A stretch of 64,000 bases of DNA from Callorhinchus milii. Lineage: Eukaryota. The notes under the pieces were generated by a model, which was not told the DNA's origin, did no database searches, and worked only from the letters and a program-made list of their open reading frames with translations. Positions 786-64,000 of this stretch are shown here, piece after piece. The translations under genes and the position numbers were made by a program. Location: assembly GCF_018977255.1 (NCBI RefSeq), contig NW_024704742.1, positions 46,068,001 to 46,132,000 of the forward strand. Direction: 5' to 3'. Position 1 is the stretch's first letter; the number at the start of each line of letters is the position of its first letter.

Positions 786-1010
786 AACACTTGCTGACTT
801 CTCAAGGAGGAATGTATCATATTGGGATTGAAATTCCATTATAGGAACACAGCTGTCATAAAGGGGTCTGGACCCTGGGATGTTTTAATGCCAAAATCTT
901 AATACACGAACACTAATTTTTGTGACCGTTAATCTTTGGAAGGTTTCAAATGTTAGATCCAAACTTCAGGGCCTGATTTACCATCCAAACAGCAATAATA
1001 ACTGCATTTA

Positions 1011-1762
1011 ATGTAAGCTGATGGTACAATCTTAAAGGGGGTGAAGGAACAGAGAGACCTGGGGGTTCATATAAGCAAATCTTTGAAGGTGGCAGGACAG
1101 GCAGATAAAGCTGTTAAAAAGCATATGGGATACAAGGCTTTATAAATAGGGGCATAGAATACAAAGGTCAGGAAGTTATGGTGAACCTTTATAAAACATT
1201 GGTTAGGCCTCAATTAGAGTACTGTGTTCAGTTTTGGGCACCACACTTTAGGAAGGATGTCAAGGCATTGGAAAGGGTGCAAAGGAGATCTACCAGGATG
1301 GTACCAGGAATGAGGGACTTCAGTTATCAGGAGAGGCTAGAGAAGCTGGGATTAATCTCCTTGAGGCAGAGAAGGTTAAGAGGAGACTTAATAGAAGTTT
1401 TCAAAATTATGAGGGGTTTGATAGCCTGAATAAGGAGAAACTATTTCCACTGGTGGGTGGGTCGGTAACCCGAGGACACCGATTTAAAATAGTCGTTAAA
1501 AGAAACGGAGGGGAGGTGAGAAGAAATGTTTTCATACAACGAGTTGTTTGGATCTGGAATGCATTGCCTGAAAGGGTGGTGGAAGCTGATTCATTAACAA
1601 ATTTTAAAAGAGAAGTAGATAATTATTTGGGAAGGAAAAGTTTGCAGGGCTATGAGGAGAGAGCCGGGGAGTGGGATTGAATTGGATAGCTTTTTTTTGA
1701 AAGAACTGGCACAGACAAAATGTGCCGAATGGCCTCCTTCTGTGCTGTACAATTCTATGATT
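1011..1762 (+). mobile_element. CR1 LINE 3' fragment (family A), degenerate ORF2 C-terminus and 3' UTR
   Basis: ORFs give LYKTLVRPQLEYCVQFWAP, LERVQRR, RRLRGDLIEVFK, TRGH and WNALP, typical of CR1 ORF2; tail GAATGGCCTCCTTCTGTGCTGTACAATTCTATG; closely similar to the copy at 56106-57486. Confidence 0.95.
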
Positions 1763-2973: not shown

Positions 2974-3320
2974 AACAACAACAACAAGATTACCTTTGTA
3001 TAGTGCCATTCAATGAAATGTTGTACACTGTCCAGCGCCTTGGGACGTCTCCCCGACGTGAAAGACGCTATACAAATTTAATCTTGTTGTTGTTGTTCAC
3101 GTCGGAGGATGTCCCAAGGTGCTGGACAGTGTACACCATTTCAGACCCGAGCTGGGGTCAGGGGGGGAAAAGGGAGATGAAGGGAAAGGGGGTGGCCGAT
3201 GGCATGGTCAAAGAGGAGGAAGGGGGGTGGCTGATGTCATGGTCAAAGAGGAGGAAGGGGGGGTGGCTGATGGCATGGTCAAAGAGGAAGAAGGAGGGTG
3301 GTCAATGGCATGGTCAAAGA
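2974..3320 (-). mobile_element. L2 3' fragment with an inverted self-copy (3013-3095) and a terminal minisatellite
   Basis: (CAA)n tail at 2974; tail stem-loop sequence split by an opposite-strand copy flanked by TTCA; tandem units at 3188-3320. Confidence 0.85.
3188..3320. repeat. Minisatellite, about 4 copies of a ~35-bp L2-derived unit
   Basis: GGGTGGCTGATGGCATGGTCAAAGAGGAGGAAGG-like unit repeated four times, the last copy partial. Confidence 0.9.
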
Positions 3321-35617: not shown

Positions 35618-36437
35618 GAAGAAGAACAACAAAATTACATTTGCAAAGCGCCTTTCACATCGGGAGGACGTCCCAAGGAGCTGAGCAGTTGGGGGACCAG
35701 CACCCAAGCCTGTTGGGGCAGGGTTGGGGAAGGGAGGGCAAAGGAAGCTAGCAGAAGGCATGCTTGAAGGAGGCAAGGGAGGGAGTAAGATTAATGGATT
35801 GTGGGATGGAGTTCCAGAGGATGGGGGCAGAGAGGCTGAAAGCTTGGCTGGCAATGTAGGGTGGTTCAGGCGGGAGACATGGAACAGGCCAGAGCCTCCT
35901 GAGTGGAGGGAGCGGACAGGTTGATAGGGGATCAGTGAGTCAGAGATGCAGGAGGAGGCAAGGCCATGGAGAGCCTTGAAAGTGAGGATGAGGATTTTGA
36001 ATTCTTTCCTCTGAGGGATGAGGAGCCAGTGGAACTGGGCGAGCGTGGGGTGATAGCCTGGTAGGGGAGAGGACACGAGCTGCAGAGTTCTGGATGATCT
36101 GCAGCTTGTGGAAGGAAGAGTTGGGGAGGCCGACAAGGAGCGAATTTCCGTAGTCGATCCTTGAGGTGACGAATGCATGTATGAGGGTTTCGGCGGCCTG
36201 AGGGGTGAGGCAGTGCCGGAGTCGGGCAATGTTGCAGAGGTGAAGGAAGGAAGAGTGGGTCATGGCATGGTTATAGTGAAGAACTGACAGTTGAGGGTTG
36301 AACAAGATGCCCAGGTTCCTAACTGGTTTGTTGAGGTGGAGTGTGCATCTGTGGATGCTGATGCTGCCAGTGCCTGAGGTGCAGTCGTGCTGGCGCGAGC
36401 CAATCAGGAGAGCCTCAGTCTTGCTGACATTCAGCTG
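35618..36437 (-). mobile_element. L2 LINE, 5'-truncated, with a fold-back at the truncation point
   Basis: ORF 35940-36305 gives LCNIARLR, AETLIHAFVTSRIDYGNSLLVGLP and LQIIQNSAARVL; L2 tail at 35618-35685. Confidence 0.93.
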
Positions 36438-43210: not shown

Positions 43211-45763
43211 TATGTAATGTGAAATGTAGCATGGAAACGCTACATAAGCACATAAAAAAGAAAATTTGGAAGTTGTAGCTTTATAATGAAATCATGCATA
43301 CTTTTTATAAATTTTCCAAAATTATGATTGTGAAAAGGTGTTGTTCTGACCAAATGAAAAAAATAGTAACACACTTCACGGTCATTCACATAGAAGCTGT
43401 ATTTTGCCTAAAAGTTCCATTAGTTAATTATCTTGAATTGTATTTGAATGTGAAAAAATGCCATTACCACTAAAATATTACTAACAAACCAGCAACTGTA
43501 ATGAAAAATTATGCAAATGAATGCAAGCTACTTTTTTTGAAAATAAGTTAAATCCAGCTCTAATATTTCACATCAAATGATTGATTTTGATATAATTTCT
43601 CAATGATAGCTAACTCTGATCAAGTAGCGAGCCACCTGAAGAAGACAATTCTCAGCCAGTGTAAGGATGAGTGGGTACAAGGTGTCATTGTTATTTAGTG
43701 CTTCAAGTGGAATGGGATCAATGTTCTAATCTCCACAGCGAGGATATCATCATAAATCACAGAATGGTGTGACATCAGGTTTTACTCCAAATTCATTATT
43801 GTTAAAATGCAACGTGCTTGAGCAGAAAATAAGGTGAATTTATGTTGATATATAGAGGTATCATTATCACCTGGCTGCTTTGAGACATGCTGGTTTTAGA
43901 ACCAATTAAAAGCACATCATATCTCAGTTATTAATGCTTAATTCTTCCAGTTAACTTGCAAATGTTACAAAGGCAAAACACACAAATTATTAGATACAAG
44001 TCGAAAACAGCTGTCTTACAATACATTTTGCAAATAGGTTGAAGTATTCAATGTTGAACTTTCCCACGTTAACATCGATAATTAATGCACAATTTATTAT
44101 TGTTCTTTGATGCTCATTCTTAAAAATGTTTTACATTTATTTATAAAGAGGTCAATCTTGTTATCTTTGGAGCTAAAGGCAAAACATTCACTTTTGCAGG
44201 GGATTAATTGTCTTTTTTAATGATTAGTTGCTTTTCTTAGATATAACAACTCATGGCTGTACGCAAATCGACTGCCATGTTCACCTTCAGCAATATACAG
44301 TCTCTCCCCTTTACAGTAAAACTCTGTGAAATGTTTTGAGACATCCTCCGTTATGTAAGGGAGGAACATTAAATGTAAGGAAATAATTGTCATTAATATG
44401 CATATAAAATGGGAATAATTTGAGTTGGGGGTCATTCAGCTAAGTAATTTTTTGGCTAAAACAGTATGCTGTTGAATGCAATCTGACATATCTTTAAGTA
44501 CCACTAGATTTTAGAATATTTCCATCACCTCACACACCCACATACTTTGAAAAAATATTTGAGCTAAAAATTTCTTTGTTCCATTTGTTGTTTCTGATTG
44601 AGCTCTCAGTGCAGTTAAATAATGGATACACATCTTAAATCAATCGGTATCTGCTGAAGAGGGATTCAACAACAACAATAACAACTTGGATTTATATGGC
44701 GCACTCCACGCCAGACGGCAACTCAGAGTGCTTTTCAAATGCAGCTTACACCTCAGAATCATACTAAATCATGTTAAGAAATCATTGCTTAAACATCAAT
44801 CTAAAATTTCAACGTAAATGCCATCAGACTAAACCATTGTGCTAAACGTCGAGCGATTCTCATTTTCAAATTTGTCAAAAGTTAAGAAATTTTTAATCAT
44901 AATTTTCAGCAAAGTCAATGATAATTATGGCATTAAATTTTGCAGTTTCCATCCCATTGTTATGAATGTGTTTGCCCACAAAATACATAGTCACTATACT
45001 GTACAGTAGATCTTGTGATATTCTTGGAGCATACTTCTGTTGTGAAAAGTGCTGAATATCAAATGTAAGGATTATTATTATGAATAGCCAATCCAGAGGT
45101 TTACCATTTTCTTTTCTTTTCTGCATTGCCAAGTGTTTTTAAAGGAAACAGTATGTATGTTTTAAGACTATAAGATTTCAGAGGAGAAGCGTAAAGCTAG
45201 GTTCAGGGATACAGATTCTGCTGCATTAGTGAGCTGTGAGCACAACTACCCTAATGAATAGGATACATGTCTGTCAAAATAAATAACATGGCTGTACTAT
45301 GGATTAAAAATTGACATAGTGAATTCATAAAAGTGCTGTGTTGTAGAAAACAGTGCAATCAGGGATTCGCAGAATCAAGCAGGTGAAAAAAAAGTCTGCT
45401 TTTATTGTGTTGTCAGAAATGTGACATTCATAGTATGATAAATGCATGCAGCAAATTAATTTATATTAAAATTTTGAAAAGGCAGAAAAACAAAAAAAAG
45501 TGTTGCTGGATAAAATTTCTGATGAACCTTCAGCAAAGTTGAAGATTTCAGTTTGCTGTCACATAGAGCATGCATTTCTTCTGTACAATGTTGAACATAA
45601 CAACATAATTTAAATACTACAAAAATAAAACAATGATTTCACTCAAATGTCTGTTTATTGTCATATTTAATGCACCAGGATTTCCTGCTGAATATGAGTC
45701 AGAGCTGTGACATAGTTGTCATAAATAAATAAATCTTAATTTCTTGAGTGGATAACAAATAAA

Positions 45764-46126
45764 GGAGTCCTATATCTTAACGGTTAGAGCAGTCACCTCT
45801 CAAGCAAGAGGACCTGGGTTCCATTCCCTGGCAGGGCAAAACATTGGGTAATCTTTACTCCACATGCCTTTATTCACCTAGCTGTAAGTAGGAACCAGTT
45901 TTTAGTCGATTGTCGGATTGCTTTTCCGGGGATAATAATTCCTTCAAAATATTATTATATTTGGTCACTGAATCCATAACTGTTTGTCAGATACTGCTGT
46001 GTGCAATTGGCTGCTACTTTTCTTTCACAAAGTATACAGTCAATTCACTTTACAGTATATTCTGTGAAATGCTTTGAGATGTCTTGAAGATGTAATAAGG
46101 TGCTATACCAAATGCAAGGATTATTA
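45764..46126 (+). mobile_element. tRNA(Ala)-like SINE, long variant, full length
   Basis: GGAGTCCT head, GGTTAGAGC, CTGGGTTCCATTCC; extra segment at 45870-45930; Deu 3' half; AAATGCAAGGATTATT tail. Confidence 0.88.
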
Positions 46127-48163
46127 ACTCAATTTGCTTGGCACAGTGATAAATGCTGCAAATGGCTTGTAAAGGTTAATACATAACCACATTTAAATGC
46201 AAGTACCTAGGTTGTGTATTCCATGTCAGTCAAAAGACAATATCGAAAGACAGAACACAATGCTTATCAAAAAGGATAATTTTACAAATATTCAACTATT
46301 ACTTTCTTATGATTTCCAGGAGAACCACAGGAGAATGTTGGGGAAGTCATCAGGATAATTATTGAAAGAGAACGAGTGTTGAGAAACAGTTAATGAAACT
46401 CAAGGTGGGAAAGTCATTGGGTCCTGATGTTTGAATCTAAGAATGTGGAGCAAAGTTCGAGAAGAGAAAATTGCAGTTCTGACCATAATGGTTAAAACTT
46501 CTTCAGAAACAAATGTTACAAATATAATGGATAGAAATGTTTAACCTACAAGGAACCTGTCTGGCTTTTTTACAGGCATCAGATTCACAATTCATTTGCT
46601 GCCAATTTTGTATTCCAATATTCACAAACTAAAAGTCGCAATAGATCATGTTTTAGGAATATCATCTTTTAGATCTCTATTTTCCATGGCTAATGCTCAC
46701 TCCCATTGTGCTTTATCCTACCTTGTGGGTATATAATTGTTGTGATACAAAGTGCTTTGAGACGTCCTCCTAATGTGAAAGGTGCTAGATAAATATAAAT
46801 TGTATTGTAGCTGCGTGAGCCTTCAGCAGCACCATCATGGAAGGTAACTTCTGCAAGGAGCATGAAGGGATCAATGGTATATCCTAATGGTGGAATACTG
46901 GCATTTCCAGTGACTTGAAGAATTATTGGAATATACTTTGTGTTATTTCTTAATTTTATATCTTTCTGTGGAAAGGGGTATAAGTTTAGAGTTGTGACGG
47001 GTAATTTTAGAAAAGACAGCAAGAAGTATTTCTTCACACAGAGAGAAATGAACAGCTGGAAAAGATTAACGTAAAAGGGAGGTAGAGGCCAGGCCACTGG
47101 ACTCATTTAAGGAACAGCCTGTAATGGTAGATTTGTTATTCGGAAAGGAAAGTGTCTATGGGTTGAAAGATTTTCTTTATCAAACCTCTCTTTTGATCTT
47201 ATGACACCATCCATACCAGTTACCTTGGCAAATCTCCCAATTGTAATTTCATAGCAAGATAGATGGCTATTACAATTTGGTTAAATACACTTTCAAAACA
47301 AAATTGTTATAATCATAGCATTGAATGTCTGAGGGGAAAACATAAATATTAATGACAGAAACTCAGGATTGGGGTTAAGCTATGCTACCACATTAGTAAA
47401 ATGCCATAGCAGTTTCAGGTTGAACTATTATTGACACTGGATTCATTTAAAAAATATTGTAACTCGAAGCTGTGATGGGTGAAAACATGGAGATTGATAT
47501 TCTGGAAGAATGAGATCACATAGACCAAGAGGTTTTATAATCTAGATATTTCTTGCAATCTCTTGCAATTATTTTAATTAGTCAATTCTCTCAATTAATT
47601 CAGGAACTTTTTTTAGAGGATGTTAATGAGCCTAAGATGCTGTCAAATTGCTTTGATTTCGTGCCATCAATTTGTTCAGGAAACCAAAGGGTAAACAGAT
47701 TGATGTTGAGGTCAGATTGAATGTTGCTCTGAAGTGGTCAATTTTCAAGCAGTGTTGACAAGCAGAAGCGTCTACGGAGAAAAAAATATTAATATCTAAC
47801 AGCATTCAAGCTGTATTACTAATGACAGAAAATTGTAATGTTCCTGTTTAAAATGAGCACCAGTTTGACTACATTGGTACTGGATTGTACCAGCAGAAGC
47901 AGAATAACTGCTAATGTTGATACATTTGTAATTCCTTTGTGTCATGCTTTCTAGTGCAAGATAGTTTGCAAGTTTAAGTCCTCGCTTATTCTAAAAGTAT
48001 GGAAAATGTTAGTCTCATTCTGTGTCTGTCCCCTGCTAAAAATAAGAAGGATGTCAAAGGTAATGTTCATTTTTGCCAGTAACATGAGCCTGCACAGAAT
48101 GATTAGCTCATCATCTCAAAGGCAACCAGGGTTCAGAATACAAACTTTTCCAGTCAGCTACAT

Positions 48164-49845
48164 ACAACAACAACAAAATTATATCAGGACCCAAGCGTGG
48201 GGGTGCAGGTTTGAGATGAAGAATGGAAGAGAAGTGGGAGGGCAGCTGAAGGCATGGTCGAAAAGCAGGGTCTTGAGATGTGCCTTGAAGGAAGCAAGAG
48301 AAGATTGTGGGATGGAGTTCCAAAGGATGGGGTCAGAGAGGCTGAAAGCCTGGCTGCCGATGGTGGGGCGGGTCGGGTGGGAGACATGGAGCAGCCCAGA
48401 GCCTCCTGAATGGAGGGAGAGGACAGGTTGATAGGTGGTTAACAGGTCAGTGATGTAGGAGGGGGCAAGACCATGGAGGGCCTTGAAAGTGTGGATGAGG
48501 ATTTTAAGTTCTATCCACTGGGGGATGGGGAGCCAGTGGAGTCGGGCGATGATGGGGGTGATGGGGGCACGGAGCCTGGTGCAGGACAGGATATGAGCTG
48601 CAGAGTTCTGGATAATCTACAGTTTGTGGAGGGAAGAGTTGAGGAGGCTGATAAGGAGGGAGTTTACGTGCCATCAATTTGTTCAGGAAACCAAAGAGGA
48701 AACAGGTTGATGTTGAGGTCAGATTGAATGTTGCTCTGAAGTGGTAGACGAGCCTTGAGGTGAAGAATGGGTGTATGAGTATGTTGGCGGCCTGAGGAGT
48801 GAGGCTGTGGGGGAGTTGGACAATGTTGCAGAGATGGGGAAAGGCAGAGTGCCTCGTGGCATGGATATGGTGAAAAAAGGACAGTTGAGGGTTGAACAAG
48901 ATGCCCAGGTTCCTGACTGGCTTGGTGCGGTGGAGTGTGAATTCATGGTGATGCTGTCCGCGCCTGAGGTGTGGAAGTGCTGGCACAAGTCAATCAGTAG
49001 GATCTCGGTCTTGCTGACATTCAACTGTAGAAAGTTGGCTCTCATCCAGGACTTGATGTATGACAGACAGTCTGTCAGAACGTCAGTTGCCCTGGAATCG
49101 AGTGTGGAGGCAGAGAGGTACAGTTGGGTATCATCCGCATACATATGGAAGTTGACCCCCTGTCTGTGGATGATGTCACCAAGCGGGAGCATGTAGAGGA
49201 TGAAGATTAGGGGATTGAGGACAGAGCCCTAAGGAACACCGCTCGAGTCTGTGTGGGGACTCGAAGAGAAACCATTGGTGGAGACAAATTGGAGACGATA
49301 TGACAGATAAGGTCTGAATCATTCAAGGACAGTACCTTGAAATTTGAGGTGAGAGGAGAGACAGTGGAGGAGGATGGAGTGGTCCATGGTATTGAAGGCA
49401 GCAAAAAGGTCAAGGAGTACGAGGAGGCAGAGGGAACCCTGTTCACAAATGGACAGGATGTCGTTTGTGACTTTCGCCAGAGCATTTTCCGTGTGGTAAG
49501 CAGCACAAAAAACAGATTGGAGGGGCCCGTGAAGGGAGTGGTAGGAAAGGAAGGAGTGAAGCTGGGAAGCAATGAATCAAGAAGCAAGGACTTTGGAAAG
49601 AAGAGGCAGGTTGGAAATGGGCCAGTAGTTAGAAAGCAGGCATGGGTCCAGGAAAGGTTTTTTCAGGATGGGGATGATTATAGGGGGATGGGAATGGTGC
49701 CAAATGTTACAGAGCGATTGATGGTGTTGGAGAGCAGAGGGGTGAGGAGGTGGAGCTGGGAGGTAAGTGGAGGGGTGAGGATAGGGTCAAGGTGTGTTTC
49801 ATGCTGGATATGGTGGTGATGAGAGAGGAGGGGAGACAAAATTGG
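48164..49845 (-). mobile_element. L2 LINE, 5'-truncated (~1.7 kb), carrying a foreign 79-bp insertion
   Basis: ORF 48719-49192 gives MLPLGDIIHRQGVNFHMYADDTQLYLS and IKSWMRANFLQLNVSKTE; (CAA)n tail at 48164. Confidence 0.95.
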
Positions 49846-50084
49846 ATATTGGTGAATAAATGTTGTGTTATCTCCAGTACAGAGAAGAACAACTCAATAA
49901 CTGTTAGGAAAGATTGTGGCATTTGGCCAAAAAGATATTAGATTTTCTTCAATTTTTAACATTCATTTCCTTGGTTTAATAATCACATTCAAATATTGCA
50001 AGAAACAAATAGAAGTATTAGTAATTGTCATGAAGATAATTAGCAGAAAAACAATTAATCAAAAAAGACCTACATGACAATGTC

Positions 50085-51087
50085 AGCAACTTTAACGTCC
50101 TACAAAACCTAAAAAGTCCTGCTTGGTTCCTGTGAGTGTCTTCTTACCTCAGGTGCTGATCACATCCGGCAAACGTAGACAACTGAGACCAAGTTATGCA
50201 TAATCTGTGGAAGTCCCATGGCATCATGGATTTTCTATAAAATCAGCATGTACCTATTGTGGATGTTTTTGTTCCTTGATATAAATACACCATTGGTTTT
50301 CTCTATAGATTGGAATACACATTCCAGGAAGACTTTCCCACCTAAGGTTCTGCTGATCACATCCTAAACCTCACTATAGCTCACAGAGCTGATACAGAAT
50401 CTTAGTGTTTTGTTCGACCTCCAACTGTTCTTCAAGTGCTACACCCAGGCTCTTATTTGTTAGTTTCCAAATTGTTGCCTACCTCTACCTACCAATTTCC
50501 CTGGGCTGCCAAAACTCTCAACCACGCCTTCATTAAATCCAAGTCATTCAAATGTCGTTCTCACTGACTCCCTAACTTCTCCCTGCACAAGCTGCAAAAT
50601 CTGCAGGTGTTATCTCACACGAGGCTCTGTAAACCAATCTTCCTTACTCTCATTCAGCTCAACAGGTTCCCTATCCCCCAGCAGATCTAATCCAAGATCC
50701 TCATTTTCAAATCCTTCCATGCTCCACCCTTCTTCTGTGACCTCCTGCAACTCTATCACTGTGACTGCATGCTCCGCTCAGCAATTGCTGGCCTGCTTAA
50801 ATGCCCTCCGTCCAACCACCTCACCATTGGTGGACAAGGTTTCAACTATTCTGCTTTTGCTCTCTGTAACTTTATCCTGGAGACCATCTGCCTTGCCACT
50901 CCAACTACTTTCAACCATTTATGCCTTCTTTAAGATCTATATTTTCCACCAAATTTTCAATTACCTTCCACCCCAACCCTCCTCTACTCCCCCATGCTCT
51001 GCAGCTTGAAGTCCCAGTCAACTGTAAAGCACTTTGAGATATTCTCCCGATATGAAAAACATTATATAAATGCAATTTTTTTGTTGC
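50085..51087 (+). mobile_element. Old L2 fragment interrupted by an insertion at about 50168-50350
   Basis: Collinear by eye with L2 10610-11460 (CCTGCTTGGTTCC, ACCTCAGG, CACGCCTTCATT, CCCTGCACAAGCTGCA, CAAGATCCTCATTTT, tail). Confidence 0.75.
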
Positions 51088-52639
51088 ACCTTGCCTATTC
51101 ATGGCGATGTACTCGTCCTGAATGATAGACTTACATAGAATCATAAAGTCGTAGGGGCAGAAAGAGGCCATTCAGCCCAACTAGTCCATGCCTGTTTTTA
51201 TACTCTACATGAGCTATCATCCCTCCTGTTCAAAGAAAATTTCTTCTTCCTGCATAATTAGATTCAGAACATATGTAGATTTGAAGAAAACAATTAGAAT
51301 GGTCTATTCATATCAGTACCTGCTCCATATAAGATTTTTAAAAACAATGTCTTTTAATTAATATGTGCAGTTACTGTATAAACACAAAACCCCTCAAGAA
51401 ACAGAAGACTTAAAATCAGTTTCAGTGCATCTTTGGATCAATTTAATGCCACATAATTTTGAATGCAGACCTTGAACCATTACATTGGGTAGTTCCGTAT
51501 AATCCTTTAAACTTTTAATTAAATACTTGGTAACACTTTCATCCAGAGCATTCATATGACTGGCAACAGAATCAAAGGCAATTTCGCCTCAATCGCTTAT
51601 CTTCAGTTCTGGTGCATGTCTTCACCAGGGAGAACTACTGAATCATCAATATTTCTAACAATGCTATTCTCAGAATATAAAGCAACATGGTGCGCTATAG
51701 GTGAGCTCATGGGATTCTACACAAAAGGTTTTCTACATTTAAATTTCAGGGAAATGGTTCATGTTAAATTAACTTTGGGTGTGGCTGTAGCTATGGAAAG
51801 ATTAACATTCTAAAATTTTGTCTTCCTTGAATCTATGGGGAAAATCATTGGTGTTTTTATATCAAGGAACAAAAACATTGACAGTAGGTACATGCTGATT
51901 TTATAGAAAATGCTACCATGTCCTGGGACTTCCACAGATTGTGAAAAACTTGGTTTCAGTTGTCTGCATTTGCATGAGCTGAAACCTTGTCTTTCCATTT
52001 TCTTTGAGAGGTGTTTTGTGACAACTAGTGGACCAACTCAGTTTTCCTGTGAAAATGTATATAAATGTATATCTCTATAAATAATACAACTCATTATCAT
52101 CAAACGTTTGTGGTGAAACTATCTGGTTAGGTAGCATTATCATCCACATTGTTGTTTTTTAATAATTTCTAGAAATCTACCAAATCTATCATTGAGCAGT
52201 GCAATGATTCAAAGAAAAACATTGTCAATTAATTGTTCTGTTTTGCAGGTTTCAAGATAAATAATAATAAATAATTTCACAGCTGCACTCATAGAGTGCC
52301 CTTCACGTGGGGCAGCGTTTTCGAACGCTTAATTCTTATATTCAATATAGTAAATTTCACATTGTGAGGATGTCTCAGACTACGCCGCAGGATTGGACTT
52401 AAAGTAAAGAAAAGCAGCAGTGAATTTGCCCACAGCGATCCAGTGAATGATTAATTTAATCTGGTGGATTTTTAGCCAGGACATCGGGAGAAATGTCCTT
52501 CTCTTTTCAAATGGATCACTAATCCGATGCTTAAACAAAGGTATATACTGCACATGCTATCCAGAATTATACCACTTACTGTAACTGTTGGTTTGGTACA
52601 GTTAAAGGCATTGTTTATTATGTGAATTGGCAACAAGGA

Positions 52640-52950
52640 TGACTCTCATTTAAATAGATGAGCTGTGAAGAACAACAAGATAAGTTAGAGTTCTTCTGCC
52701 TTAAGAAGTCTTTGGAGAAGTTTTTAGAGTATACAAGTATGATGCCAAATGAGGCTGACAAAGTAAACTCAGTCAATACTTTCGACATGCAAAATTTGCA
52801 GATAAAAGACGACACAGATTCAGGGTTGATAAGGGTACTCCAAAGCATTTCTTTACACAGAGGATAATTGACCGTTGGAACAGATTACCAGAGAGGAAGG
52901 TTGAGACCTAGATGCTGGACTCATTTAAGAAGCAGCATAATGCTGCACAG
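52640..52950 (+). mobile_element. Very old CR1 3' relic
   Basis: Degenerate Y-E-E-R-L...L.LF.L.K pattern and TTCTTTACACAGAGGATAATTGACCGTTGGAACAGATTACCAG (FFTQR...WNRLP). Confidence 0.6.
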
Positions 52951-55412
52951 GAAAGGCACCAGGGTGGGTATTTTGGAAGGGTGGTCGAAAAGTCTTCTTC
53001 ATCCACACCATTCATATGATATTAGAGATATTATTATTACACTGAGATTATACTGTCCACAAACAATCAACCTGCTTAAATCGTATTATTGAAACTATTT
53101 GACTCTGGACACATTGAAGCCTGATTAACAAGGCCACAATTGTTTCGATAATAGGAGGGCACCTTTACAATGGATGTACCTTAGCTATGTACTTTAAAAG
53201 AGAAATGATCAAAGCATACATTGGTAATGAACTGTTGCACATGAACACGTCTATGGCACAGCAAGTCTGTTCTGTGTTAAAATGTAAAATTACATATAAT
53301 TGTGAAAAATTCTTAAATGGAGCTTTTATATGGAAGCCTGTTTTCTGCAGTTCTTCAAAAAAAAATTCTAATTTAGAACTTTCCTAAACAAATCTGTGTG
53401 CCTTTAAATTTTAAGACAAAATTATCTTACAGACTTCGTTAGAATAGAAGAAATTTCGAGCTTCAGATTATATGTTGTGCATCAATAGGACTGCATGCAC
53501 ATTGTAAAATTGGACCTGTGACTGAATGTAATCACAAGAGTTTTGTAGTTCAAGGCTGTGATTTTGTATCTGTTATTTAAACCTAGATACTTGAAACATA
53601 GATAACTGGGAAAGAGTTACAAGCCTCAAATAAAATGGAAGTATTTGGATACCAATATAAATCATGACAGAAATCTCAAGTGGTTTCTAAATGACATCTG
53701 AATGTTATGATTGTCACACCCTTGACAGACTTCCCAGCAATTTCTCATTTCACGTAACCTATTAATTGCCTCTCTTTTTTTTGCACTGATCTGAACTGCG
53801 AAAGAATCAAGAGTTGTTTATTGCTGTGTAAAATCATATATGTTTTTAGATAATCAATATTTGGAGGCAAACCTTGTTAACTATCACAATGCTGTCACTG
53901 CTCCTACTGTGTTGCAATAATACTGAATTGTTGTAACTGATATATTTTCACAGAATGCCTTACGGGCTTTTGTTTCTATTTCCGTGAAGTAGGATTAAGA
54001 GTAAATAATTACTATGCGAACACCATGAGCTGCAGATACAATATCACCAAATAGGACACATGTTTTACAATGGATCATACAAGTTTAAATAAGTGAAACA
54101 AAAGGTAAAATAACAAAATAAATAAGTAAAACATTGGTCCGCGAATTTGATGATCAAAGAACTGAAGTATCAATCAATAAATTGTCCTTTTCCATGTGAA
54201 CAAAACCAATTTAAATCATAAAAAATCCTGGAAGCTTTCCATGCATTTGCAGTTTGTAAAAACACTTCTGCTTTGTTTTTAAAAAATATTGGGGTACGAC
54301 TTGTGTTAATTCCTACAAGTGATAATTATGGCATTGCCGATGATTGTGGTCAAGGCATTTAGTAACTGACCCCTCTGTGTGGATGTATGGCCTGATTGCT
54401 TCACAGTGGTTGGGGCTAAAGTAAACTATGGCATCCTGTACTATGTGACAGTTTGTGTCATTTTCAGCTCAGGAACCTCTAATTAAGTGCTGTTTTATGG
54501 GATATTCACTGAACCAGGACTTTTATATTGAACTGATGTGGTATCCTGTGGACCAGCGCTCCACAGCAAGCTCTACAGGCCAAAGGTACAATGTGGTAAT
54601 CTTTAGTTGTTGATTGTCTTCACCCACTTATCAACAATGATGATTATCATTGGTAATAATTAACTTACATCACAATTTTCATTCTATTTTGCCTTCTTCT
54701 ACCTAGTTTTCAATGACACTAGCCCTTGCATTTATATAGAATCCTTCACTTAGGAAGGCATCTCTTTGCAGCGATTAGCTTTTGGGTGAAACAATTTAAA
54801 TAAGGATTGAATGTCATATTTTCTGTTACTGCAGTTATTGATTTGTACGTTACCAGCAGGGAAATGTTCCATATTGTGATGCTGCATTTTGTATGCTACA
54901 AAATCCAAGACATCCCACACAGAAGAAGGTCAGTTTGCCGATTGAGCCTATGTTACTAATAATAATAATTGCTTTTGATATAGTGCGTTTGCACATCACC
55001 ACCGGAGCTATTTACTTTAATCCCAATTCCCTGCTCTTTCCCTGTACCCTTTTACAATTGCTAATAAGTCATTCTAAGGAGTGATTTGAGTATTGTTTGT
55101 CCATGAGATTCAAGGGGGGATGTTTCCCTTGTTCTTGATTGTGTCACTTGTTACTTTGCAGTGTGGTAACACAGTTTGATCTGTCACTTTACACCAGTAT
55201 ATCAAAGGGAGTAAACACTATAATGCCAGATTTGCAACCGCTTCTCCTATATCATTCAACCACATGCTATTTGAGACTCTCTGCTTGCTTATGTAAGCCT
55301 TATAAATACTAACCTACTTCCCTCTAGCTGAAACTAAACCTTGTCAGCATTAATCTGAACATCCCACTTTCCACATTTTAACCTCTCCTTATTCAAATGA
55401 ATTTCAATATAG

Positions 55413-55612: not shown

Positions 55613-57770
55613 AAGTGTGAGGTATTACATTTTGGTAGGAGGAATTAGGAGGTCACATACTGCTCAGAAAATAAGAATCTAAACGGGGTAGAGGAGCAAA
55701 GGGATCTAGGGGTACAGATACACAAATTGCTAAAAGTAGCAATGCAGGTTAATAAAGCTATATAAAAAAAGAAAAACAAGCATTGGGGTTCATTTCTAGA
55801 GGAATAGAAATGAAAAGCAGGGAAATTTATATCAAACCTTGGTTAGACCACACTTGGAGTACTGGGTACAGTTCTGGTCCTCATATTATAGAAAGGATAT
55901 AGAGGCAATTGAGAAGGTGCAAAGGAGATTTACAAGGCTTGTTCAGGAAAGGCTGAACAAGCTTGGACTCATCTCTTGAAAACAGAAGGGTGAAGGGTGA
56001 CTTAATAGAGGTCTTTAAAATGATGAAAGGTTTTGATAGGGTAAACACAAAGAAGATATTTCTACTTGTTGGGGAGACCAAAACCAGAGGCCATATGTAT
56101 GAAATCATAGAATCATAGAATTGTACAGCACAGAAGGAGGCTATTCGGCCCATCGTGTCTGTGCTGGCTCTTTGAAAAGAGCTAACCAATTCAATCAACT
56201 CCCCTGCTCTCTCTCCATAGTGCTGCAAACTTGTCCTCCCCAAATAATTATCTACTTCTCTCTTAAAAGTTGTTAATGAATTGGCTTCCACCACCCTTTC
56301 AGGCAATGCTTTCCAGATCCAAACAACTTGCTGTATGAAAACATTTCTCCTCACCTCCCCTGTTTTTTTTAACAACTATTTTAAATCGGTGTCCTCAGGT
56401 TACCGACCCACCCGCCAGTGGAAATAGTTTCTAACTTGTTCACTGTATCAAATCCCCTCATAATTTTAAAAACTTCTATTAAGTCTCCTCTTAACCTTCT
56501 CTGTTCCAAGGAGAATAATCCCAGCTTCTCTAGCCTCTCCTGATATCTGAATTCCCTCATTTCTGATACCATCCTGGTAAATCTCCTTTGCACTCTCTCC
56601 AATGCCTTGACATCCTTCCCAGAACTGAACACAGTCTCGAGCTGAGGCCTAACTAGCGTTTTATAAAGGTTCATCATAACTTCCTGACTTTTGTATTCTA
56701 TGCCCCTATTTATAAAGCCTAGTATTACGTATGCTTTTTTAACAGCTTTATCTACCTGTCCTGCCACCTTCTAAGATTTACTTATATGAAACCCCAGGTC
56801 TCTCTGTTCCTTCACCCCCTTTAAAATTGTACCATCAGCTTATATTGCCCCTCATTCTTCCTCCCAAAAATGCAACACTTTGCATTTCTCCACATTAAGC
56901 TTCATCTGCCACGTGTCTGCCCATTTTACAATTATGTCTATGTCCTCTTGTAATCTACTACTATCCGCCTGACTGTTTTCTACTTTTCCTAGCTTAGTCT
57001 CATCTGAAAACTTGGAAATTGTACTCCCTATACCCAAGTCCAGGTCAATTATATAGATCAAAAACATCAGTGGTTCTAATACTGACCCCTGGGTGACACC
57101 ACTGCACAGTTCCCTCCAGTCAGAAAAACAACCATTCACCACCACTCTCTGCTTTCTGTCTCCCAGCCAGTTCTGTATCAATGCTGCCGCTGATCCTTTA
57201 ACACATTGGGCTTCTATTTATCTTACAAGGCTCTTATATGGCACTTTAGCAAACGCCTTTTAAAATCCATATAAACTACATCAACTGCTCTACCTTCTCC
57301 GTTACTTCATCGAAAAACTCTATCAGGTTTGTTAGACATGATTTGCCTTTAACAATTCCTTGTTGGCTGTCCTTTATTAAGCCATATTTTTCTAAGTGAA
57401 AATTTATTTTGTCTCAGATTATAGTCTCTAGACGTTTCCCCACAACTAACGTTAGGCTGTAATTCACGGATTTATCCTTCGGTTTTAAATAGTCACCAAT
57501 AAATCAAGTAGGGAAGTCAGAAGAATCTTCTTTACACAGAGTTTGGTGGGAATGAGGAACTTGCTATCACAAGGAGTAGTTGAGGTGAATAGCATAAACG
57601 CATTTAAGGGGAAGCTACATAGGTACATGAGGGAGAAAGGAATAGAAGGTTATGCTGATGGTTTAGTTGAGGAAGGGCAGGAGGAGGATCAAATGGAGCA
57701 TAAGCGCTGGCATAGACCAGTTGGGCCAAAATGGCCTGTTTCTGTGCTGTATATTCTATGTAATTCTATA
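55613..57770 (+). mobile_element. CR1 (family C) host, split into 55613-56105 and 57487-57770
   Basis: [19 protein letters not shown] and ACCAGAGGCCAT (TRGH) on the left; resumes ATAGTCACCAATAAATC...TTCTTTACACAGAG and ends GGCCTGTTTCTGTGCTGTATATTCTATGTAATTCTAT. Confidence 0.9.
56106..57486 (-). mobile_element. CR1 (family A) nested in the family C copy
   Basis: WLGDRKQRVVVNG, QGSVLEP, KFSDETKL, LYKTLVRPQLE and LRGDLIEVFKIM; (ATTCTATG)n tail at 56106; AAAT present at both junctions. Confidence 0.95.
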
Positions 57771-62010: not shown

Positions 62011-64000
62011 AAGGATGAAGGGCTGAGTAGAGAAAACGACTATATGAACATTCATGATGTAAAACACAAGGAAAAAAACAGAGGCTAACTGAAATAGTAT
62101 GCGTCAGGTAACAACGGGCAACTCTTTGACAGTTAATTGGATTTTTTATATTTGCTCCAGGGGATGTGAAATATTGTTCACCTAATCTGGTCAGATTTGT
62201 CCAACGCTTTATTTTACTTGAAAAAATGGGCTTTATGTTTGGATCTTTGCCCATTTAATGGAGGGTGTTTCACAAGTGTAACCAGCAGCAAAAGCATTAC
62301 CTCCATCAGTCCTATTGTCACAATTTTCCACTCATTCCCATAACATGCTGTTTCCTGCACTAAGAGCTAGTGTGCATCCTTTGTTTTAAACCCGTGACGG
62401 AAAAACACAACTAGAAGTTACACGTGCTGGCTGGTGCATGTTCCTCTTTCCTGCTATAAATAGGATATTAGCCTGTCCTAGAAAGGAGCTTCCTCACAAT
62501 TATTGGAGTAATGGGCTTTAGCAGTGCTAACTGTGAAGGAGAGCACATCATTTGAGGGTTGATGTGATGAAGTTAGTTTGATAGCCTCCTGAACTGTCCT
62601 CAGGCAATAAAAGCCAATTGAAATGTTCCGTCTTCATCATCTTGCTTTTTTTTCTCCCTCTTTGGCTGTATACTGGTACCAGGGATTCATTGAATATGAT
62701 GGCACGAGTCCTCAGATATAGTAATAACACTAATAATAATCCTTGCATATAGCAACAGTACATGTACTGGTGCCCAATTATGTGTAGCTTTCATAACAAG
62801 CTAATTCACCTGCCATAATTTGAACTGCACTGTGTTTGAAACAATACTGTACATAGTTACTTCAGTCAATTTATTTTGTTTAATTCTGCATAAAGTAAAA
62901 CCTAATAACATGCATTTTAAATGATTTTCAGCATACTATGCCTGAATATCTCTCAGTATAGCAAGTGACCTGGGCAGTGCTTATTCTTTTCTTCAATAAA
63001 GTACTTTTGCTTGTATCCACCTTCGATCAACATACTATCTCACCTCGGACTGCCCTTGACCACAGATATTGTCAAATACATATGCTATCATTGTATAGGA
63101 AATCACAGTACCATGTCGAAGGGAAAACAAGCTAAATTTAAAAGCAGACACAAACACTGACATTGAGATCTGTATGTTAATGCCTTAAGTAGCAACCATC
63201 TATCAGAAAGCTTTCTTTCTATAAATCTCTTGCCGAGTTCTGAATTGGCAAAGATAAATGAGTAAGGGCCTCGCGGGTGCTGCCAGCGAAATTGGAACAC
63301 ACATCTGTAATGATATTCCTGGCATCACATAACACCTGCACATTAATAGAATGGCAGTACTTACTGTTACAAGAATTATGTGCTTTCTCAGCAGGTGCAG
63401 AGATGGCTGCTTGGCTACTGTCAATCAACTCTGTGACATTGGGAATAGGAGCTCTGTCTGTAGTTCTCGTTTGCTATAGCAATTAAGTTGGGAAAGTTTG
63501 GCTTGCTGAGCTGAGGATATCAAGCTCTGTCTTGGATGACTATCTTAAAATCGAGGAACACAGGGCTTGACTTGAAATTATTTGAACATTATTGACATGC
63601 TGGTATCTCTACAGGGGAGGGGAATCTCAAAGGAAATAAACATAAAGGATGACCACTGCATCACGCTCACTGGTGAAAAATTCATGCAAATCGGTTAGGT
63701 CAACAGACTTCACTTAACTGGTAGGACGAGCTTACTGAATATAAATCTCTCAAAACTATGCATGTCAGACTGATCAATACACTAATATTCTCTGTAAATT
63801 CTGATGGATTCATCTCTTTCCCCAATGGGAGTGTGCCAGCACTAGTAATAACCATTTTAAAATGGGCAAATCAATCTAAAACAGCCACTATTTATATTCT
63901 GCACTTATTTATATTCCATAGCATCACTTTCAGCATTGCAGAGGGGAGCAGTAAGATTTAATAGCTTATCCCCCAAATTATCTTCTCAGTTTGTTGACTC

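What the first reader, a model, noticed from the sequence alone, without database searches (positions are those of the whole stretch)
47660..48745. 79-bp piece of neighbouring unique DNA copied into the middle of an L2
Seen: 48667-48745 matches 47660-47738 at 76/79 positions in the same orientation, about 1 kb apart. The copy interrupts the L2 motif GAGTTT(G/A)CGTAGTCGAGCC, intact in the L2s near 36145 and 60683, with essentially no loss of L2 sequence. Junctions show microhomology (CGT left, GT right). Inference: a locally templated insertion, from polymerase-theta-type end joining or from the LINE reverse transcriptase jumping onto flanking DNA during integration. The low divergence would date the event.
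Basis: partly seen in the sequence, partly recalled or inferred. Interest (0 to 1): 0.7.

Follow-up and report, generated by a model that had tools for sequence, protein, structure and literature searches.

The report
Local DNA-repair copy inside old LINE
A 79-base piece of nearby DNA really was copied into a long-dead jumping gene about 1 kb away, most likely as a scar of DNA-break repair long after that element had inserted; this is a known, ordinary kind of small duplication.

Summary
47660-47738 and 48667-48745 match at 76/79 positions, same strand, offset 1007. The copy adds a net 76 nt to an L2-type LINE with no loss of L2 sequence. Contigs of four public runs show the break pattern that two copies predict, the junctions are covered, and donor depth is at single-copy level. 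It is therefore neither a misassembly nor a small mobile element. Dating argues against the reverse-transcriptase-jump idea. The L2 has decayed neutrally by 7-12%, so a copy of the same age should differ from its donor at 10-18 sites, not 3 (P 2e-5 to 0.02). Canonical polymerase-theta insertion also fits poorly: the template is about 1 kb away and the tract is 76 nt. The case matches 'repair-mediated duplications' (Pace et al. 2009, PMC2671141), which were defined as TE-interrupting copies of a donor within 5 kb; that paper lists human examples inside L2. Microhomology is weak: 3 nt in total, unless GT was duplicated. The host is probably elephant shark. This scan noted similar copies elsewhere in the same genome (unchecked notes). 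Real, ordinary, low interest.

The parts
47660..47738 (+). Donor: 79 nt of non-repetitive DNA, template of the copy
   Evidence: 76/79 to the copy, only two copies in the window; single-copy-level depth in 4 runs; no Pfam hit in the five short ORFs that overlap or follow it; no Rfam hit in 44000-54000
48667..48745 (+). Copy (acceptor): 79 nt matching the donor, net 76 nt gained by the L2, shifting the frame of the already dead ORF2 just after the RT domain
   Evidence: junction contigs
48667..48669 (+). Left microhomology CGT, shared by the L2 and the donor start (47660-47662)
48744..48745 (+). GT at the right junction; also at 48668-48669, so either a 2-nt duplication or an alternative reading of the same 3 nt of microhomology
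48164..48669 (-). 3' part of the host L2-type LINE (end of ORF2, tail with a short simple repeat)
   Evidence: 82% to the 36-kb copy over 367 nt; tblastn 73% to a Callorhinchus milii RT protein, with 1 stop
48746..49835 (-). 5' part of the same 5'-truncated L2-type LINE (RT domain, with stops and a frameshift near 48945)
   Evidence: Pfam RVT_1 E 2.2e-9; tblastn 53-77%; same private-mutation density on both sides of the copy, 15/173 and 16/186

Best explanation
A repair-mediated duplication made in the germline long after the L2 had inserted. Shown: the L2 is one element on both sides of the copy; it is older than the copy; the copy came from DNA 1007 nt away on the same strand; no L2 sequence was lost; there is no poly(A) and no long target duplication. 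Inferred: a break or stalled fork arose inside the L2. A free 3' end paired through 1-3 nt (CGT) with the donor on the sister chromatid, the homologue or the same molecule, a polymerase copied about 76 nt in one run, and the new strand came off and rejoined the other side of the L2 with 0-2 nt (GT) of overlap. Strand invasion and re-annealing after a break (SDSA-like, the model of Pace et al.) and a double template switch at a replication fork give the same product and cannot be told apart here. The product is most likely neutral and fixed.
For: Host-private differences fall evenly over codon positions (16/142, 13/138, 11/107; non-CpG 9/127, 10/128, 12/104), whereas differences shared between subfamilies pile up at third positions (15 of 21; 17 of 25). 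The 7-12% is therefore decay after insertion. A copy of the same age should differ from its donor at 10.4-18.4 of 79 sites; 3 are seen (posterior-predictive P 0.019, 0.007 and 2e-5 under three rate choices). Relative age of the copy 0.18 of the L2's (95% range 0.04-0.51). Size, distance and junctions lie within the published class: 50 bp or more, donor within 5 kb, peak near 1.2 kb, microhomology 2-9 nt, no poly(A) (PMC2671141). Its Table S1 lists a human-specific case inside an L2 with the donor 846 bp upstream. Between-sample differences in the unique flank are 9 in 8939 letters (0.1%) against 3.8% between donor and copy, and the two-copy signature is in 4 of 4 runs.
Against: Microhomology is weak (P 0.054 for 3 nt in total). 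Dating rests on 79 sites and only three paralogous L2 copies; at the lower 95% bound of the two most cautious rates the test is not significant (P 0.06 and 0.16). Later gene conversion between donor and copy would make the copy look younger and was not excluded. 'Only two copies genome-wide' rests on contig depth at 90% likeness, not on a genome BLAST. No empty allele or outgroup was seen.
Confidence: 0.85

Rival explanations
1. Canonical polymerase-theta end joining: after long resection, one end primed on the single-stranded flank of the other end 1 kb away, copied 76 nt and rejoined through the new microhomology. This would also give a same-strand copy.
For: Same orientation, 1-3 nt microhomologies and no loss fit priming in trans; such insertions often use microhomology under 3 bp (PMC7165422, passages).
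Against: That paper defines these insertions as templated within 50 bp of the break, with first tracts rarely over 10 bp. Here the template is 930-1007 nt away and the tract is a single 76-nt run.
Confidence: 0.07
2. RNA-templated patch (class-2 templated sequence insertion): a fragment of a local transcript was reverse-transcribed and used to patch a break in the L2.
For: No poly(A), no long target duplication and short microhomology are also the class-2 features (PMC5110952, passages). The genome is rich in LINE RT sequence.
Against: That class is defined with donors from distant regions. No evidence was obtained that the donor is transcribed; no RNA run was laid.
Confidence: 0.04
3. The L2 reverse transcriptase jumped from its RNA onto flanking DNA during integration, copied 76 nt and returned in register.
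For: The copy has the polarity of first-strand cDNA of this minus-strand element (sequence). Complex L1 insertions with template switching and local changes exist (PMC11702581, passages and section 13).
Against: Timing (P 2e-5 to 0.02). The copy is internal, about 500 nt from the 3' end and about 1090 nt from the 5' end. The donor lies about 430 nt beyond the insertion site. The section read describes switches between RNA templates and changes at the target site, not an internal excursion with return in register.
Confidence: 0.03
4. Misassembly, or a small mobile element present at both places.
For: None positive; the right junction misses the tool's bridging rule by one letter and no listed contig spans the whole stretch.
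Against: Three fixed differences; two-copy contig signature in 4 of 4 runs; junction contigs; single-copy-level depth; no target duplication at the donor.
Confidence: 0.01

Closest known systems
Repair-mediated duplications, proximal class (Pace, Sen, Batzer, Feschotte 2009, PMC2671141; main text parts 1-6 of 8 and Table S1 part 1 of 15 read)
   Same: Insertion of 50 bp or more interrupting a transposable element; single donor within 5 kb (peak about 1.2 kb; here about 1 kb); short microhomology; no poly(A); empty site inferred from other copies of the element; examples inside L2; also found in zebrafish and chicken.
   Different: Shorter than their mean (162 bp) but inside their range. Loss-free, filler-free junctions are the rarer type there (microhomology only: 2 of 39). 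A 2-nt duplication is below their 4-21-nt target duplications. No cartilaginous fish was among the species they surveyed.
'Doublets' (Thomas et al. 2004; paper not held; known here from Pace et al.'s description, and from recall)
   Same: Short local two-copy duplications proposed to come from break repair. Recalled, not checked: 25-100 bp, about 1 kb spacing, mostly same strand.
   Different: Recalled definition uses exact matches; here 76/79.
Polymerase-theta templated insertions (PMC7165422, passages)
   Same: Locally templated, direct orientation possible, microhomology of 3 nt or less.
   Different: Template within 50 bp and first tract rarely over 10 bp there; about 1 kb and 76 nt here.
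Class-2 templated sequence insertion polymorphisms (PMC5110952, passages)
   Same: No target duplication of 5 bp or more, no poly(A), end-joining-type junctions, donor intact.
   Different: Donor from a distant region and an RNA route proposed there; here local, and apparently fixed rather than polymorphic.

Membership tests
Repair-mediated duplication (Pace 2009) | Insertion of 50 bp or more splitting one element; both halves same family and orientation, consensus positions within 30 bp | tested here: met
   Net 76 nt, no loss against three other copies; equal decay on both sides
Repair-mediated duplication (Pace 2009) | Donor more than 50 bp and at most 5 kb from the acceptor | tested here: met
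   Offset 1007, gap 928 nt
Repair-mediated duplication (Pace 2009) | Insert found at only one other place in the genome (reciprocal BLAST) | tested here: inconclusive
   Two copies in the window; single-copy-level contig depth in 4 runs; no genome held for BLAST
Repair-mediated duplication (Pace 2009) | Not a nested element, retrogene or transduction; no poly(A/T) of 5 nt or more | tested here: met
   Junction sequence; no Pfam or Rfam hit
Repair-mediated duplication (Pace 2009) | Junction signature: microhomology, filler or small deletion | tested here: met
   3 nt in total, or 3+2 with a 2-nt duplication; statistically weak
Repair-mediated duplication (Pace 2009) | Empty orthologous site in a relative | not testable with these tools
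   No eukaryote genomes searchable; no empty-allele joint among the 15 joints listed (383 not shown)
Polymerase-theta templated insertion | Template within 50 bp of the break | tested here: not met
   About 1 kb against the definition
Polymerase-theta templated insertion | Short first synthesis tract (rarely over 10 bp) | tested here: not met
   One 76-nt tract
Polymerase-theta templated insertion | Genetic dependence on POLQ | not testable with these tools
   Historical event
LINE integration chimera (RT template jump) | Captured piece is as old as the element | tested here: not met
   3 differences against 10-18 expected; gene conversion not excluded
Class-2 templated sequence insertion | Donor from a distant genomic region | tested here: not met
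   Donor 1 kb away
L2-clade LINE (host) | RT domain of a non-LTR element | tested here: met
   RVT_1 E 2.2e-9; 53-77% to C. milii RT proteins
L2-clade LINE (host) | Placement in the L2 clade against Repbase/Dfam references | not testable with these tools
   No repeat library on hand. The label rests on recalled C-terminal motifs and on the tail shared with the window's SINE-like repeats, which fits the L2-2_CM partner described in PMC5499810 (passages)

The most novel reading that the evidence does not exclude
The L2 reverse transcriptase left its RNA in mid-element, copied 76 nt of duplex DNA beyond the insertion site and resumed in register, and later gene conversion kept donor and copy alike. 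That would be an internal DNA excursion by a LINE RT preserved in a genome.
Probability: 0.03. Interest if true: 0.65.

Novelty: new member of a known kind. Interest (0 to 1): 0.13.

Why it matters
On its own, little. It is a clean, datable example of a germline repair scar in a lineage (probably a holocephalan) that the 2009 survey did not include; a search for the class together with shark or chimaera terms returned no such paper among the 10 listed (a weak search). No function is indicated: the donor shows no known coding or RNA family and the host was already dead. The only wider angle is statistical. Several similar copies were noted elsewhere in this genome (unchecked), so a genome-wide count could show whether a slowly evolving fish keeps these scars at primate-like density (0.52-0.65 per Mb of TE) or zebrafish-like density (0.19). 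One window cannot answer that.

Tried and rejected
Genome-wide BLAST: impossible, no genome held. Donor as exon: none of 111 longer ORFs of the window (of 131 listed; 20 left out, mostly overlapping L2 copies) or 45 short ORFs near the locus (of 112 listed) hit a convincing host-gene family; the hits were two RT fragments, a DDE fragment below cut-off and a weak RAP1 match below cut-off. This does not exclude short exons. Donor as RNA gene: no Rfam match. Donor hairpin as cause: a 12-bp imperfect stem at about 47665-47705 folds, but z = -1.0 (+) and -2.2 (-, 5 of 200 shuffles), and the copy shows nothing; not pursued. Target-site duplication of the L2: the best candidate (8 nt at 48173 and 49836) lies in tail sequence that another copy shares, so it was rejected. 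Empty allele: one X8 contig joins 48669 to 48750 with four other letters at depth 24, three times single-copy; read as a paralogous L2, not an empty allele. Two of the three mismatches lie 2 nt apart; chance 0.14, no signal of error-prone synthesis. Look-ups of earlier notes near the locus, by words and by sequence returned nothing. A search on fork-slippage terms was seen as a listing only and is not used as evidence.

Full report
Observation. Positions 47660-47738 and 48667-48745 are identical at 76 of 79 sites, without gaps, on the same strand and 1007 nt apart. A self-comparison of the window finds no third copy. The copy sits inside a 5'-truncated, minus-strand LINE at about 48164-49835 with an RT domain (Pfam RVT_1, E 2.2e-9), in-frame stops and a frameshift. 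Aligned with three other copies of the family in the window, the host has one 76-nt insertion and has lost nothing. The best protein matches for a sister copy are labelled Callorhinchus milii in UniRef, and earlier notes on this genome also say elephant shark (unchecked). The L2 label rests on recalled motifs and on the shared SINE/LINE tail described for this species (PMC5499810, passages); no repeat library was available.

Is it real? No genome is held, so I used public runs. Of 14 listed runs, the four holding over half of the sampled words (one study) were laid as contigs. Donor and copy share a perfect 39-nt stretch, which for k=31 predicts contig ends at 47729/47709 and 48736/48716. All four runs break at 47729/47709. 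One listed contig runs 48589-48736 across the left junction with no differing letter. Two start at 48716 and continue into L2, covering the right junction with 30 letters on the insert side, one short of the tool's bridging rule. The piece table was truncated, so missing rows mean nothing. Depth over most of the donor is 8.5-15.7, like unique DNA, while the other L2 bins reach 4,300-366,000; contig depth is not a copy number, but a multi-copy small element is not indicated at 90% likeness. The runs differ from the window at 9 of 8939 letters in the unique flank (0.1%), far less than donor against copy (3.8%), so the copy is probably fixed.

Junctions. The empty site has CGT between the conserved flanks. 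The donor match begins with CGT and ends with GT. If the join was blunt and loss-free, the usable microhomology totals 3 nt. The '3 left, 2 right' reading needs GT to have been duplicated, by a staggered break or by a fork that resumed two bases back. Simulated random insertions give a total of 3 nt or more in 5.4% of cases, and that plus the 2-nt ambiguity in 1.0%. Microhomology is therefore compatible with repair but weak evidence. There is no poly(A), filler or long target duplication.

Timing. The host differs from its closest sister copy by 18% (15.5% outside CpG). To separate decay after insertion from subfamily differences I counted by codon position. Host-private differences are even (16/142, 13/138, 11/107), whereas differences shared between pairs of copies are mostly at third positions (15 of 21, P 0.0004). 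A repeat with frames taken from protein alignments and CpG sites masked gave the same picture (9/127, 10/128, 12/104 against 17 of 25). The L2 has thus decayed neutrally by 7-12%, equally on both sides of the copy (16/186, 15/173). Had the copy been made at integration, donor and copy would each have decayed as long, giving 10.4-18.4 expected differences; 3 are seen. Posterior-predictive P is 0.019 with the A/T-only rate, 0.007 with first and second positions, and 2e-5 with all non-CpG sites; at the lower 95% bounds of the two cautious rates P is 0.16 and 0.06. The copy is about 0.18 times as old as the L2 (0.04-0.51). Gene conversion over 79 nt could bias this and was not excluded.

Mechanism. 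The most likely history is a break or stalled fork in an old L2, a 3' end that paired through 1-3 nt with DNA 1 kb away in the same orientation, one run of about 76 nt of synthesis, and a return to the other side without loss. The order of events and the anatomy are shown; the enzymology is inferred. Strand invasion with re-annealing and a double fork switch cannot be separated. Canonical polymerase-theta insertions use templates within 50 bp with first tracts rarely over 10 bp (PMC7165422, passages) and fit poorly. An RNA patch (PMC5110952, passages) is defined with distant donors. An RT jump fails on timing and on the internal position; the L1 study consulted describes RNA-to-RNA switches and target-site changes (PMC11702581, passages and section 13).

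Comparison with what is known. Pace et al. 2009 (PMC2671141; main text parts 1-6 of 8 and part 1 of 15 of Table S1 read) searched for exactly this pattern: elements interrupted by 50 bp or more of DNA found at one other place. They report 824 human cases with the donor within 5 kb (peak near 1.2 kb, mean length 162 bp), microhomology of 2-9 nt, no poly(A) in 39 of 39 inspected proximal cases, and 80 cases in zebrafish. The part of Table S1 that I saw includes a human-specific 158-bp case inside an L2 with the donor 846 bp upstream, so such copies do land in long-dead L2s (that human L2 is long extinct is recalled). The parts read give no tally of orientation; unread parts of the table may bear on this and on the number of L2 hosts. 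They link the class to the 'doublets' of Thomas et al. 2004, which I could not read. All criteria testable here are met, except genome-wide uniqueness, which is supported only by depth. Earlier notes of this scan describe similar copies in the same genome (e1-7931703, e1-7812733, and an at-integration case e1-7812105); I did not test them, and e1-7812733 supplied the lead to PMC5110952.

Verdict. A real, probably fixed, probably neutral repair-mediated duplication: a new member of a known kind, of low interest.

Noticed in passing
window 50169-50311 and 51830-51973: A second local two-copy duplication: inverted, 124/144 (86%), one gap, about 1.5 kb apart, only two copies in the window, single-copy-level depth. 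Probably an older event of the same general kind; neither copy visibly interrupts a repeat, so donor and copy were not told apart.
   Followed up: partly
window 47665-47705: Imperfect 12-bp inverted repeat in the donor, starting 5 nt inside its left end; marginal against shuffles.
   Followed up: partly
window 47686-47696: The donor holds a weak 5'-splice-site-like motif and two of the three differences remove its GT in the copy; no exon was shown and the clustering is within chance.
   Followed up: partly
window 47336-47669: Contig depth 38-77, four to five times the unique level, just left of the donor: some low-copy repeat not seen elsewhere in the window.
   Followed up: no
window 50168: Contigs of all four runs read A where the window has G: a private allele of the assembled individual or an assembly error.
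   Followed up: no
window 3188-3249 and 3259-3320: Near-tandem 62-nt duplication, 89% identical.
   Followed up: no
window 63222-63473 (-): Weak DDE_Tnp_4 match (E 3.8e-5, 23.8 bits, below the 24.8 cut-off): possible relic of a DNA transposon.
   Followed up: no
window 1010-1762 and 56111-56846: Two 88%-identical copies of another long repeat, next to an RT-bearing ORF at 56855-57217: a younger LINE family than the host L2.
   Followed up: no
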